A DNA stretch of 64,000 nt from Eledone cirrhosa. Its lineage: Eukaryota. A program made the position numbers and the translations under genes. Positions 7,553 through 58,251 of this stretch are shown here, one piece after another. The stretch covers positions 38,626,001 to 38,690,000 of the forward strand of contig OZ024758.1 of assembly GCA_964016885.1 (NCBI GenBank), given 5' to 3'. Below the pieces are notes generated by a model, which worked only from the letters and a program-made list of their open reading frames with translations, was not told the origin of the DNA and made no database searches. Every line of letters begins with the position of its first letter. Within the stretch, counting starts at the first letter, position 1.

Positions 7553-7610
7553 ATACCTGATGATATCACCGGATTCATACGGAACCCGGTCATTGAAATG
7601 ATCATAGTAT
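7553..7610 (+). ncRNA. Type I hammerhead ribozyme, family A
   Basis: ATAC-CTGATGA(7557-7563)-stem II ACCGG..CCGGT-GAAA(7595-7598)-TGATCA-TA-GTAT. Palindromic stem III; predicted cut after 7606. Confidence 0.72.
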
Positions 7611-7985
7611 AATAAACCTTTCAAGGATTTACACAAATCCAGCCTCCTGTCATTTCATTATAATATTTAACTCCGTAAAACAAAGACAGTTGAACTGCTT
7701 CACGTTGAGTACTCTCTATATTATTGCATTACGATTGACCATACGGAATAGACCAGCTCTATACAGTGGTGAACCTCATACCTGAATAAATATATATATG
7801 TATATATATATATATATATATATATATATATATATATATATATATATACATATATATATATATATATAATGTAGGAGGTGAGTTTTATAAAGCAATGCAG
7901 ATATCGGTTAAGAAGCACTCTACAGTTTGTAGGACTGGAGTATACATAATATAAGATCAAAAGATGGTTAAAGGAGTTCCATGTA

Positions 7986-8052
7986 TTTTATTATGCGCAT
8001 TTCAAAAACAAACATCATCATGCAATAATATTTGTGTTTTCATCAGATAAAA
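7986..8052 (-). ncRNA. Type I hammerhead ribozyme, family B (left arm of palindrome)
   Basis: Reverse complement of the motif at 8180-8246. Confidence 0.82.
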
Positions 8053-8179
8053 CAGGAGAACATGATATGAAGACTAAAAAACACTTGTGGATAGTGCAGT
8101 TTTAAATCAACATATGATATGTTGATTTAAAACTGCACTATCCACAAGTGTTTTTTAGCCTTCATATCATGTTCTCCTG

Positions 8180-8246
8180 TTTTATCTGATGAAAACACAA
8201 ATATTATTGCATGATGATGTTTGTTTTTGAAATGCGCATAATAAAA
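8180..8246 (+). ncRNA. Type I hammerhead ribozyme, family B
   Basis: TTTTAT-CTGATGA-AAACACAAATATTATTGCATGATGATGTTTGTTTTT-GAAA-TGCGCA-TA-ATAAAA. Stem II pairs with G-U wobbles; palindromic stem III; predicted cut after 8240. Confidence 0.85.
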
Positions 8247-8286
8247 TACATGGAACTCCTTTAACCATCTTTTGATCTTATATTAT

Positions 8287-9100
8287 ATATATATATATAT
8301 ATATATATATATATACATATATATGTATATATATATATATATACATATATATGTATATATATATATATATACATATATATGTATATATATATATATATAC
8401 ATATATATGTATATATATATATATATACATATATATGTATATATATATATATACATATATATGTATATATATATATATACATATATATGTATATATATAT
8501 ATACATATATATGTATATATATATATATATACATATATATGTATATATACATATATGTGTATATATATATATACATATATATGTATATATATATATACAT
8601 ATATATGTATATAAATATATATATAAATATATATACATATATATGTATATAAATATATATATAAATATATATACATATATATGGATATAAATATATATAT
8701 AAATATATATGTATATATATATATATATATATATATAAATATATATGTATATATATATATATATATATATATATATATAAATATATATGTATGTATATAT
8801 ATATATATATATATATATATAAATATATATGTATGTATATATATATATATATATATATAAATATATATGTATGTATATATATATATATATATATATAAAT
8901 ATATATGTATATATATATATATATATATATATATAAATATATATGTATATATATATATATATATATATATATATATAAATATATATGTATATATATATAT
9001 ATATATATATATAAATATATATGTATATATATATATATATATATATATAAATATATATGTATATATATATATGTATATATATATATATATATATATATAT
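8287..9100. repeat. Compound (TA)n microsatellite with TACA/TATG/TAAA interruptions
   Basis: Directly visible. Confidence 0.97.
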
Positions 9101-54214: not shown

Positions 54215-55716
54215 AGTGAAGCACGTGGCTTCGTAGTTAGGGTATTCGGCTTAAGATTGTCAGGTCACGAGTTCAATTCCCAGCAGTACATTGTGTCCTT
54301 GAGCAAGACACTTTATTTCATGTTGCTCCAGTCCACTGTGTCCTTGAGCAAGACACTTTATTTCATGTTGCTCCAGTCCACTGTGTCCTTGAGCAAGACA
54401 CTTTATTTCATGTTGCTCCAGTCCACTGTGTCCTTGAGCAAGACACTTTATTTCATGTTGCTCCAGTCCACTGTGTCCTTGAGCAAGACACTTTATTTCA
54501 TGTTGCTCCAGTCCACTGTGTCCTTGAGCAAGACACCTTATTTCATGTTGCTCCAGTCCACTGTGTCCTTGAGCAAGACACCTTATTTCATGTTGCTCCA
54601 GTCCACTGTGTCCTTGAGCAAGACACTTTATTTCATGTTGCTCCAGTCCACTGTGTCCTTGAGCAAGACACTTTATTTCATGTTGCTCCAGTCCACTGTG
54701 TCCTTGAGCAAGACACTTTATTTCATGTTGCTCCAGTCCACTGTGTCCTTGAGCAAGACACTTTATTTCATGTTGCTCCAGTCCACTGTGTCCTTGAGCA
54801 AGACACCTTATTTCATGTTGCTCCAGTCCACTGTGTCCTTGAGCAAGACACTTTATTTCACGTTGCTCCAGTCCACTGTGTCCTTGAGCAAGACACTTTA
54901 TTTCATGTTGCTCCAGTCCACTGTGTCCTTGAGCAAGACACTTTATTTCATGTTGCTCCAGTCCACTGTGTCCTTGAGCAAGACACTTTATTTCATGTTG
55001 CTCCAGTCCACTGTGTCCTTGAGCAAGACACTTTATTTCATGTTGCTCCAGTCCACTGTGTCCTTGAGCAAGACACTTTATTTCATGTTGCTCCAGTCCA
55101 CTGTGTCCTTGAGCAAGACACTTTATTTCATGTTGCTCTAGTCCACTGTGTCCTTGAGCAAGACACTTTATTTCATGTTGCTCCAGTCCACTGTGTCCTT
55201 GAGCAAGACACTTTATTTCATGTTGCTCCAGTCCACTGTGTCCTTGAGCAAGACACCTTATTTCATGTTGCTCCAGTCCAGTGTCCTTGAGCAAGACACT
55301 TTATTTCATGTTGCTCCAGTCCACTGTGTCCTTGAGCAAGACACTTTATTTCATGTTGCTCCAGTCCACTGTGTCCTTGAGCAAGACACTTTATTTCATG
55401 TTGCTCCAGTCCACTGTGTCCTTGAGCAAGACACTTTATTTCATGTTGCTCCAGTCCACTGTGTCCTTGAGCAAGACACTTTATTTCATGTTGCTCCAGT
55501 CCAGTCAGCTGGCAAAAATGAACTGTACCTGTAATTCGAAATGCTAGCCTTGTCACATATTGTGTCTTGCTGAATCTCCCTGAGAACTATATTATGGGTA
55601 CGCGTGTTTGTGGAATACTCAGCCACTTGCATGTAAATTTCACGAGCAGGCTGTACTGTTGATTGTATCAGTTGGAACACTCATCGTAACCGATGGAGTG
55701 CCACTACTACTACTAC
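54215..55716 (+). mobile_element. tRNA-derived SINE (family 2) with a 45-bp internal segment amplified ~27 times (54291-55500)
   Basis: Head GTGGCTTCGTAGTTAGGG..GAGTTCAATTCC; unit TGTGTCCTTGAGCAAGACACTTTATTTCATGTTGCTCCAGTCCAC; unique 3' body ending in (CTA)n. Confidence 0.87.
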
Positions 55717-56490
55717 AGAGTGGTAGTTATAATAGTATAGTGAATGGTATAGTGGTAGTTAGTAGCGTACTAGTTACAATAGTTAGTATAGTGAATGATG
55801 TAGTGGTAGTTAGTAGAGTACTAGTTACAATAGTTAGTATAGTGATTGGTATAGTGGTAGTTAGTAGAGTACTAGTTACAATAGTTAGTATAGTGAATGA
55901 TGTAGTGGTAGTTAGTAGAGTACTAGTTACAATAGTTAGTATAGTGAATGATGTAGTGGTAGTTAGTAGAGTACTAGTTACAATAGTTAGTATAGTGAAT
56001 GGTATAGTGGTAGTTAGTAGAGTACTAGTTACAATAGTTAGTATAGTGAATGGTATAGTGGTAGTTAGTAGAGTACTAGTTACAATAGTTAGTATAGTGA
56101 ATGATGTAGTGGTAGTTAGTAGAGTACTAGTTACAATAGTTAGTATAGTGAATGGTATAGTGGTAGTTAGTAGAGTACTAGTTACAATAGTTAGTATAGT
56201 GAATGATGTAGTGGTAGTTAGTAGAGTACTAGTTACAATAGTTAGTATAGTGAATGGTATAGTGGTAGTTAGTAGAGTACTAGTTACAATAGTTAGTATA
56301 GTGAATGATGTAGTGGTAGTTAATAGAGTACTAGTTACAATAGTTAGTATAGTGAATGGTATAGTGGTAGTTAGTAGAGTACTAGTTACAATAGTTAGTA
56401 TAGTGAATGATGTAGTAGTAGTTAGTAGAGTACTAGTTACAATAGTTAGTATAGTGGTAGTTAGTAGAGTACTAGTTACAATAGTACAGT
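55717..56490. repeat. 54-bp minisatellite (~14 units); a related unit lies before the SINE at 54148-54205
   Basis: Unit TAGTGGTAGTTAGTAGAGTACTAGTTACAATAGTTAGTATAGTGAATG(G/A)T(A/G). Confidence 0.95.
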
Positions 56491-56556
56491 GACTAGAAAC
56501 GTGGAACAGCCGTGACTTCTTCAGAATTTGTTTATCTATTTTTTTTGTATGTTTAG

Positions 56557-56694
56557 TTTGTGATATTGGTAAATTTGGACCCAACTGCGAAAGCATCTGT
56601 CACTGTACTGACAACAACAGGTGTAACAAACAGACAGGTGTGTATTTTAGTGGCGGATGTGCTGCTGGTTATGAAGGTAGCAACTGTCAGACAG
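56557..56694 (+). CDS. EGF-like exon B
   Basis: 138 bp, tttag / gtaagt. CDIGKFGPNCESICHCTDNNRCNKQTGVYFSGGCAAGYEGSNCQT; the sixth Cys is replaced by Tyr. Confidence 0.85.
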
Positions 56695-57141
56695 GTAAGT
56701 GGTGTAGTATAGCTTTGTTTGTAACTTAATATATTGAAACAAGATGACAGTAGGTGTAACACAGAGACAGATGTAACACAGAGACAGGTGTAACACAGAG
56801 ACAGGTGTGTGTTATAGTAGAATGTGTGGTGCTGATTATAAAGGTATCAACTGTCAGACAGGTATGTGTTCCAGCGGAAGATGTGGTGCTGGTTGTGGAA
56901 GTAGCAACTGTCAGACAGGTGTGTGTTCCAATGGAGGGTGTGGTGCTGGTTATAAAGGTAGCATCTGTTCCATCTCAATGCATCAGAACAGCATGAAATT
57001 TGAAGAGTCTGGTGTTATGACTCTCAGCAAGGTGTCTCCATCAACCTCAATGTGTCAGACACACCATTCATCTTCTCTTTTAAGCCATATATATATATCT
57101 CTATATATATATGTAATCTGAGTTTTTCGAATATTAATAAT

Positions 57142-57326
57142 TGTTTCTACTTTTGGCACAAGGCCAGCAATTACCCAGTGTATTACTGGTACTTTATTTT
57201 ATCGACCCCATAAGGATGAAAGGCAAAGTTAACCTCAGCGGGATTTGAACTCAGAATAGCAAGGGCCGTAACTTTATGCGTCAAAGCATGGTCCGACCCT
57301 CTACCGATACTGCCAATCTACCGCCC
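57142..57326 (-). mobile_element. Family-1 SINE, full length with an 18-bp TSD
   Basis: TTTTCGAATATTAATAAT at 57124-57141 and 57327-57344. Confidence 0.92.
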
Positions 57327-58251
57327 TTTTCGAATATTAATAATAGCATTCGATTCGTCTGCAATTATGCAAACAAGCCTCAATTTTAAAGCCATGTCAA
57401 TAGAATGAACCCATCATTCTTGCTCTTGTGTTGGCATGTAAACAGAATTGCAGACACTAACTTTTCTGGGTATCAGCCTTCATCAGTACAGCTCACTCTT
57501 CACCTGCCAACTGTCAGAGCTAGTGAAAATATATACTATTTTCTAAAATATACAGTGGCTGATCGGCCTGATTTCCATATTAGCAGACTGGCTGATCAGT
57601 CAGATCTGCATATTAGCAGATCCACTGATCAGCCAGATTTGTATATCAGCAGACTGGCCAGTCAGTTTCCTGTATACGAGGAATAAATGACCGGCTTTGC
57701 CACATTCAAATAAAATAAAATTTCCACTCTACATGGCTGAATACAATAAATGTAATCTGAGGAGATGACGAAGGACCGTGACAAGTGGAGAGATGCTGCG
57801 CTGAATAGAACCCGTCCAACCCTTGCAAGCAGGGAAAGGCGGACGTAAAATGATGATGATGATGATGATGATTGTGTGTAAACAGAGATAACAACACAAT
57901 CGGTACAGTATATGGAAAGAAAATATTAGGTTAACACTTGAAATAGCAACAAGAGGGTTTTAAGGTTTTGGACGCTAGTCCTTCATCAGAAGAAAGAATG
58001 AGAAATTAGAAAGATTGAAGGGACAGGCAGGGTGGAATCAGAAAAAAAAAAATATATATATATATATGTATATATATATATATATACATATATTTATATA
58101 TATATATATTTAAGAAAATCAACAAAGAAAAGAGAAGACAGCGAACGAAAACAAAACAAAACAAAAAAACAATTTTTAAAAAGGAAACCGTTAAACCATA
58201 AAGCTACAAAAAACATACAATTTTGTGTGACATTAGTGAAAAAAATATATA

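What the first reader, a model, noticed from the sequence alone, without database searches (positions are those of the whole stretch)
7553..57993. At least six unrelated hammerhead-ribozyme families concentrated in one (TA)n-rich window
Seen: 14 motifs with the type I hammerhead layout (stem I, CUGA(U/A)GA, stem II, GAAA, very short stem III, UH, stem I'). They are A 7553-7610; B 7986-8052, 8180-8246, 26375-26441, 39338-39404, 44669-44735; C 9240-9294, 9342-9396; D 13382-13439, 15431-15488; E 23040-23194; F 35406-35441 and a decayed copy at ~57957-57993. Stem sequences differ completely between families while the core and the pairing are kept. Stem III is a loopless palindrome in A (TGATCA), B (TGCGCA), C (TATATA), E (CGATCG) and F (ACGT). 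Established: Penelope-like retroelements and retrozymes carry such minimal hammerheads, which are thought to cleave as dimers. Inference: a diverse community of ribozyme-bearing, TA-targeting, mostly non-coding mobile RNAs, perhaps mobilised by the GIY-YIG elements seen here.
Basis: partly seen in the sequence, partly recalled or inferred. Interest (0 to 1): 0.9.

Follow-up and report, generated by a model that had tools for sequence, protein, structure and literature searches.

The report
Hammerhead ends of nested Penelope retroelements
The hammerhead-shaped RNA motifs are really there and mark the ends of Penelope-like jumping genes stacked in TA repeats: five of the six families trace to protein-coding elements, the sixth is a 2.8-kb element with no long reading frame that likely borrows their enzymes, and self-cutting is predicted, not tested.

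Summary
The motifs are real. 13 are listed (not 14); 12 keep the hammerhead core, and a descriptor finds 11 against 0.11 in shuffles. They are the terminal (pLTR) hammerheads of Penelope-like elements (PLEs), mostly 5'-truncated and inverted, ending in (TA)n. Elsewhere in this 3-Gb animal genome B, C, D and E follow RT+GIY-YIG frames carrying Hydra-clade motifs; F follows a Neptune-type endonuclease in 1 of 30 copies. So 'mostly non-coding' and 'unrelated' are wrong for most families. The clustering is mild: 11 kb-scale random stretches (110 kb) held 8 hits, suggesting roughly 10^5 hammerheads genome-wide. Three features go beyond the papers I read. (1) Family A is a young 2.8-kb unit (sister 1.9 kb) bounded by hammerheads, with no PLE protein in 13 of 13 complete units; known animal retrozymes are under 1 kb. 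(2) These Hydra elements are 4-6 kb with 85-145-nt tails (published: under about 3 kb, 30-40 nt). (3) A hammerhead subtype keeps a C-pyrimidine mismatch at stem II position 4 between covarying pairs. Cleavage and expression are untested.

The parts
6392..7074 (-). 3' fragment of a Neptune-type PLE ('G1'): GIY-YIG frame 6543-7055, short inverted arm 6992-7074; only the 3' half of its own hammerhead is left, near 6390-6400
   Evidence: (Pfam GIY-YIG E 6e-5)
7083..7785 (+). Truncated copy of ORF-less family A: inverted internal piece 7083-7374, then the sense 3' end with the long tail, ending in (TA)n
7553..7610 (+). Hammerhead A (U.U first pair, C.C mismatch at stem II position 4, 8-nt palindromic helix III); predicted cut after 7606
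   Evidence: 1817 exact copies genome-wide, control 0
7869..8283 (.). Inverted insertion of Hydra-type element B: B1 arm (minus strand, hammerhead 7986-8052, long end) and B2 arm (plus strand, hammerhead 8180-8246, short end)
9102..9463 (.). Inverted insertion of Hydra-type element C: C1 (minus, 9240-9294, long end) and C2 (plus, 9342-9396, short end)
13344..15528 (-). 5'-truncated Hydra-type element D (2.1 kb of 3' UTR) with hammerhead D1 13382-13439, and an inverted short arm with D2 15431-15488 (plus)
15567..23258 (+). 5'-truncated Hydra-type element E: inverted arm 15567-17774, then sense copy 17774-23258 with a frameshifted GIY-YIG end (to 18569), a long 3' UTR and hammerhead E
23040..23194 (+). 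Hammerhead E with 116-nt stem II and C.C mismatch at position 4; predicted cut after 23184
26248..26621 (-). Truncated B copy with hammerhead B3 26375-26441, long end
35314..35514 (-). Truncated end of old Neptune-type element F with minimal hammerhead F1 35406-35441 (first stem II pair broken in this copy)
39292..39600 (-). B insertion with hammerhead B4 39338-39404 and an inverted long-tail arm
44623..44935 (-). Duplicate of the B4 insertion (hammerhead B5 44669-44735) inside the internal duplication 38400-41946 / 43757-47283
57878..58047 (-). Decayed F copy (F2), catalytic core broken

Best explanation
The motifs are the terminal hammerheads of Penelope-like retroelements whose truncated, often inverted copies end in (TA)n arrays; B, C, D and E follow Hydra-type RT+GIY-YIG frames elsewhere in the genome, F likely belongs to a Neptune-type element, and A is a 2.8-kb unit without a PLE reading frame that is likely moved in trans by a Hydra-type protein. 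Shown: the architecture (hammerhead-ORF-hammerhead in D and E, partial tandems, 5' inversions, two fixed 3' ends per family), the TA flanks, and the absence of coding in A units. Inferred from the Anolis PLE work (Frangieh 2024): the protein nicks TA-rich DNA and starts reverse transcription at either of two sites downstream of the ribozyme, which gives the short and long ends; truncation leaves mostly ends, which pile up in TA arrays. Predicted: each ribozyme cuts only as a dimer through its palindromic helix III, or with protein help, trimming tandem transcripts to unit length. The inverted pairs in the window cannot supply a sense partner on one transcript.
For: E: 830-aa frame between two same-strand hammerheads 6335 nt apart (L089). 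D: hammerhead-ORF-hammerhead, period 5105 (L097). C: RT and endonuclease frames ending about 1.2 kb before the hammerhead (L115, L116, L117). B: frame ending 1.18 kb before the hammerhead (L107), with 821-aa open frames in 2 of 10 fetched copies. DKT, CxCX5C, CxxC..E and N..CxH are present in all four and are the Hydra diagnostics of Craig 2021, whose tables list (TA)n targeting and an octopus member. F: Neptune-type endonuclease 390 nt upstream in L174. A: 13 of 13 contiguous hammerhead-to-hammerhead units (eleven of 2731-2840 nt, one of 2362, one of 1918) have no PLE protein hit, and their longest stop-free frames are 101-196 aa. Ends fall in two classes in A, B, C and E. A shares the C.Y hammerhead subtype with B, C and E. 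Eight families covary across all three helices (13 of 16 pairs with double changes; 0/500 shuffles).
Against: No cleavage or expression data. Hydra RTs gave no Pfam hit, so the clade call rests on motifs and a by-eye match to the published alignment, not a tree. F's parent rests on 1 of 30 loci. A's helper was not identified: A abuts Neptune-type G1 directly in 3 places, and G-type frames lie in 9 of 73 A loci vs 1 of 93 others (p=0.04). An autonomous parent with A-type ends was not found in 73 loci, but about 1800 copies exist. A's isolated motif is predicted to prefer an inactive fold by 8 kcal/mol, more than a dimer recovers. In Anolis, cleavage was not needed for insertion in vitro.
Confidence: 0.85

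Rival explanations
1. One reading: six unrelated, mostly non-coding ribozyme RNAs (retrozyme-like) that share a TA hotspot and borrow local GIY-YIG elements.
For: Most copies in the window are short and non-coding; A is ORF-less; F copies are mostly about 200 nt.
Against: B, C, D and E are contiguous with RT+endonuclease frames in longer copies. F 5' ends vary and one copy runs into an endonuclease. The families share motifs and a hammerhead subtype.
Confidence: 0.05
2. A is the truncated or internally deleted form of an autonomous element not yet sampled, not a stable non-coding lineage.
For: Only 73 A-bearing loci of about 1800 or more copies were examined. One Hydra frame lies directly upstream of an A piece (L248).
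Against: 13 of 13 complete units lack coding. A1 (2.8 kb) and A2 (1.9 kb) share ends at about 83% but have mostly different ORF-less interiors. The L248 junction joins mid-unit.
Confidence: 0.15
3. A is mobilised by the Neptune-type G1 protein, and the A-G1 fusions are template switches or mixed two-arm insertions.
For: Direct A-G1 junctions without TA in the window, L246 and L224; G-type frames in 9 of 73 A loci vs 1 of 93 others.
Against: A also joins directly to D, another Hydra and SINE-like repeats, which fits nested insertion with deletion. A's hammerhead and tail resemble B, C and E rather than G1. The loci were not matched for length or TA content.
Confidence: 0.15
4. The hammerhead fold is kept as a protein-binding or RT-positioning structure, and cleavage is slow or dispensable.
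For: Frangieh 2024: catalytic mutants did not affect insertion, and no RNA reads ended at the cut. Insertion ends lie 40-205 nt past the cut. Both hammerheads of one A2 tandem carry the same core change (L220). A misfolds as a monomer.
Against: The catalytic core is invariant across eight families whose stems are rewritten.
Confidence: 0.25

Closest known systems
Hydra clade of Penelope-like elements (Craig et al. 2021, PMC8557442), including Hydra-1_Obim
   Same: C-terminal GIY-YIG, DKT, CxCX5C linker, CxxC and CxH around E/N, (TA)n insertion, terminal hammerhead with palindromic helix III and often a U.U first stem II pair, partial tandems and inverted 5' arms.
   Different: Units of about 4-6.3 kb with 1.2-3.4 kb between stop codon and ribozyme (published complete ones 2084-2729 bp). 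Tails of about 85-145 nt (published for PLEs 30-40). Long stem II with a C.Y mismatch, seen in 0 of 26 published Hydra rows (my reading of File S2).
Minimal PLE hammerheads (Cervera and de la Pena 2014, PMC4209133)
   Same: F is this type: 4-bp stems, extra base after A9, GAAACGUH, thousands of solo copies from truncated elements; inverted pairs 100-700 bp apart are also reported there.
   Different: A, B, C and E have 8-nt perfect palindromes and stems II of 26-116 nt.
Animal non-LTR retrozymes (Cervera and de la Pena 2020, PMC7229834; Li et al. 2026 preprint 10.64898/2026.07.22.740005)
   Same: A is non-coding, carries a type I hammerhead once per unit, forms head-to-tail copies and derives from PLE ends.
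   Different: It occurs as partial tandems with PLE-type inversions and tails, not long arrays. Circular RNA is not shown.
Non-autonomous Chlamys PLEs such as MRC1 (Craig et al. 2021)
   Same: Non-coding PLE derivatives with pLTRs, head-to-tail copies and 3' ends resembling autonomous families.
   Different: Algal, N-terminal-endonuclease clade that mostly lacks hammerheads; A is animal and hammerhead-bounded.

Membership tests
Type I hammerhead ribozyme | Core CUGANGA, GAAA, UH in order | tested here: met
   12 of 13 motifs; F2 fails
Type I hammerhead ribozyme | Helices I and II pair, with compensatory change across families | tested here: met
   (8 hand-picked related families; 13 of 16 pairs with double changes). 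Within family A alone there is no covariation.
Type I hammerhead ribozyme | Site-specific self-cleavage | not testable with these tools
   No assay; folding predicts B, C and E dimers favourable, A, D and F1 not
Penelope-like element (EN+), families B-E | Single ORF with RT and C-terminal GIY-YIG | tested here: met
   C seen only as frameshifted copies; Pfam support weak
Penelope-like element (EN+), families A-E | Partial tandems (pLTR), inverted 5' arm, optional tail | tested here: met
   an upstream hammerhead before the B frame was not captured
Hydra clade (B-E) | DKT, CxCX5C linker, CxxC/CxH around E and N | tested here: met
   against Craig section 11
Hydra clade (B-E) | RWK motif | tested here: inconclusive
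   RWR in E and D, RWT in B, not captured in C
Hydra clade (B-E) | Insertion into (TA)n | tested here: met
Hydra clade (B-E) | Phylogenetic placement with described Hydra RTs | not tested
   Published proteins seen only as cut text; compared by eye
Neptune clade (F) | CX2-5CxxC linker before a C-terminal GIY-YIG | tested here: met
   L174 translation, 1 of 30 loci; RT not seen
Animal non-LTR retrozyme (A) | Non-coding unit with one type I hammerhead per repeat | tested here: met
Animal non-LTR retrozyme (A) | Short unit (under 1 kb) in tandem arrays | tested here: not met
   1.9-2.8 kb, partial tandems with inversions
Animal non-LTR retrozyme (A) | Accumulates as circular RNA | not testable with these tools
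   No raw RNA run was available

The most novel reading that the evidence does not exclude
Family A is a long-lived lineage of giant retrozymes. These 1.9-2.8-kb non-coding units would be cut at their hammerheads and circularised, then copied by Hydra-clade proteins. They would use a hammerhead subtype whose conserved C-pyrimidine mismatch in stem II is a tertiary or protein contact, in a genome with on the order of 10^5 hammerheads.
Probability: 0.25. Interest if true: 0.75.

Novelty: new variant of a known kind. Interest (0 to 1): 0.45.

Why it matters
The role of hammerheads in Penelope-like elements is an open question. This genome has young, near-identical autonomous families (B, D, E) with open frames, plus an ORF-less passenger that kept the ribozyme and both fixed ends. 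Comparing them isolates which RNA features a PLE protein needs in cis. A multi-kilobase hammerhead-bounded non-coding element would link PLEs to retrozymes at a size that tandem-repeat screens capped at 1 kb miss. The C.Y subtype is a concrete target for mutagenesis. The window itself is an ordinary sample of a genome rich in these elements.

Tried and rejected
Rfam: no hammerhead family among the 150 of 417 window matches shown or the 2 matches on an A unit; the miRNA matches are TA hairpins. RNA: no RNA holder listed. Contigs of three runs of unrecorded kind cover the A unit, and one crosses the 2802-nt junction, which tandem DNA explains; they say nothing on expression. Autonomous parent of A: not found in 73 A-bearing loci. 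Hydra frames near A in L102, L156, L157 and L165 are separated from A by TA or other elements. F as a fixed-length SINE: suggested by the first 7 non-duplicate copies, rejected when 30 motif-picked copies showed variable 5' ends. The sequence upstream of F1 (35520-36480) is another repeat. Strong hotspot: rejected. Tail alignment across 7 families gave only a weak shared motif (40% identity). Lunse et al. (RNA Biol, PMC5785218) was not held; I saw only a review's passages on it, so its variants may already include the C.Y subtype. Paper searches that found no prior report: hammerhead+Penelope+octopus, hammerhead ribozyme+cephalopod, hammerhead+C-C mismatch+stem II (0 papers), Hydra clade/PLE/octopus/non-autonomous. 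Preprint supplements were not seen. Earlier scan notes: none for this genome or sequence.
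Full report
Observation. The 13 listed stretches are present. Three descriptor scans gave 8, 10 and 11 hits, against shuffle means of 0.07, 0.345 and 0.11. I relaxed the descriptors after seeing the motifs; together they recover all but the decayed F2. 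The five predicted cut sites match. Rfam showed no hammerhead among the 150 of 417 matches listed.

Setting. The window lies on contig C19 of a 3.0-Gb animal genome. It is octopus-like by inference from C2H2 zinc-finger arrays, TA richness and protein likeness to Hydra-1_Obim. The A-F cluster is in a segment present 3-7 times at 96-99.8% identity. B4 and B5 come from an internal duplication. Each family is dispersed: first-look candidates were B 335, A 1741, C 856, E 533 and F 3451. Exact motif counts were 1817 for A and 2311 for F, with controls 0.

B to E are ends of coding elements. E: an 830-aa frame lies between two same-strand hammerheads 6335 nt apart, with 3.4 kb from stop to ribozyme (L089). 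D: hammerhead-ORF-hammerhead with period 5105 (L097). C: frameshifted RT and endonuclease frames end about 1.2 kb before the hammerhead in L115, L116 and L117. B: the frame ends 1.18 kb before the hammerhead in L107, and 2 of 10 further copies have 821-aa open frames. All four carry DKT, YRDD, CxCX5C, CxxC..E and N..CxH and are 37-50% identical. Craig et al. 2021 give these as Hydra-clade features, with (TA)n insertion, hammerheads and lengths generally under 3 kb (section 11 read; File S1/S2 tables and alignment passages). Pfam barely sees these proteins, so the assignment rests on motifs. Mapping the window onto these elements shows that D and E are 5'-truncated copies with inverted arms, that the GIY-YIG at 17774-18569 is E's own, and that B and C are short palindromic insertions.

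F. Thirty copies picked by motif have one 3' end and variable 5' ends. One (L174) runs into a Neptune-type endonuclease with a CX4CxxC linker. F is the minimal hammerhead of Cervera and de la Pena 2014 (parts 1-2 of 4 read), who also describe solo copies and opposite-strand pairs.

A is different. In 13 of 13 contiguous hammerhead-to-hammerhead units there is no PLE protein hit, and the longest stop-free frame is 101-196 aa. Eleven units are 2731-2840 nt, one is 2362 and one 1918 (five loci fetched twice were counted once, and two spans interrupted by TA were left out). The nine 2.8-kb units compared are 98-99% identical. The 1.9-kb sister shares the ends at about 83% and little of the interior. 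Both show partial tandems, 5' inversions and two fixed ends. No ORF-linked parent turned up in 73 loci; 19 of these were taken from the exact-match list by position, not by interior sequence. Non-coding PLE derivatives are known (MRC1; passages). Animal retrozymes are 150-450 bp (passages) or 51-972 bp in a screen capped at period 1000 (part 1 and passages). A therefore works like a retrozyme but fails the size and array test.

Ends and mechanism. Distances from cut to TA are bimodal: A 50-60 (34 copies) and 180-220 (40), with 17 showing no end within 420 nt; B 35-55 (19) and 120-135 (16); C 45-60 (9) and 140-160 (20); E 65-70 (19) and 185-210 (13). D reads about 50 and 146 by eye. Frangieh et al. 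2024 (parts 1-2 of 4) showed that a PLE protein starts reverse transcription at two internal sites, which produces this optional tail. They also found that the ribozyme cuts only with protein present and is not needed for insertion in vitro. I infer the same mechanism here, with tails of 85-145 nt instead of 30-40. Folding predicts that palindrome pairing outweighs misfolding for B, C and E, but not for A, D or F1. A prefers a core-sequestering rod by 8 kcal/mol and would need a partner or protein. These are rough energies of isolated motifs.

Hammerhead subtype. A scan of 234 sequences (1.34 Mb, with overlaps) gave 413 hits in 28 clusters, a few of them probably chance. Of 12 clusters with a 6-nt inner palindrome, 10 have C opposite C or U at stem II position 4. 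Only 2 of the other 16 do (p=3e-4; the families are related, so this overstates independence), and 0 of 26 published Hydra rows (read by eye). In eight C.Y families that I chose, the neighbouring pairs change on both sides while position 4 stays unpaired. This suggests selection on the mismatch; its role is unknown. I could not read Lunse et al., which may cover it.

Concentration. Eleven arbitrary 10-kb stretches gave 8 hits, 7 convincing, against a shuffled mean of 0.475. That extrapolates to about 190,000 genome-wide (95% interval 77,000-390,000) from a very small sample. The window is about 2.5-fold above this by hits and not significantly by events. Its 6-24 kb part is 29% TA repeat against 7% in the random stretches, which fits nested insertion into TA arrays.

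Verdict. Real motifs of a known kind, misread as mostly non-coding. What is new in my searches is the multi-kilobase ORF-less family A, the oversized Hydra elements and tails, the C.Y subtype and the apparent genome-wide abundance. None of this is tested at the RNA level.

Noticed in passing
window 6390-6400 (minus): A seventh, broken hammerhead: other copies of the Neptune-type G1 element carry a hammerhead about 250 nt after the stop codon; the window copy keeps only its 3' half.
   Followed up: partly
window 7074/7083; L246 about 1110; L224 about 1270: Three direct junctions between family A and the same G1 family, with no TA between; G-type frames lie in 9 of 73 A loci vs 1 of 93 others.
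   Followed up: partly
L220 7450-7510 and 9370-9430: Both hammerheads of one A2 tandem carry the same change in GAAA, suggesting they were copied from one template with a dead core.
   Followed up: no
L134 58-992: Three hammerheads 467 nt apart on one strand, a conventional retrozyme-like tandem; a relative in L093 shows a compensatory stem II change.
   Followed up: no
L102 about 4050-4170; L165 about 6050; L079; L093: U3-A8 core variants of the hammerhead at the ends of other elements.
   Followed up: no
window 6000-36000: The ribozyme cluster lies in a segment duplicated 3-7 times on contigs C19 and C27; the window also holds a C2H2 zinc-finger frame at 31225-31773.
   Followed up: partly
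window 23692-26070 and 33910-35025: Two unrelated LINE-type RT frames (Pfam RVT_1); the first sits between E and B3.
   Followed up: no
L167 9355-9449 (laid contigs): Summed contig depth at the A hammerhead is about 100-fold that of the unit interior, with loose ends of further A-like subfamilies; such depth is not a copy number.
   Followed up: partly
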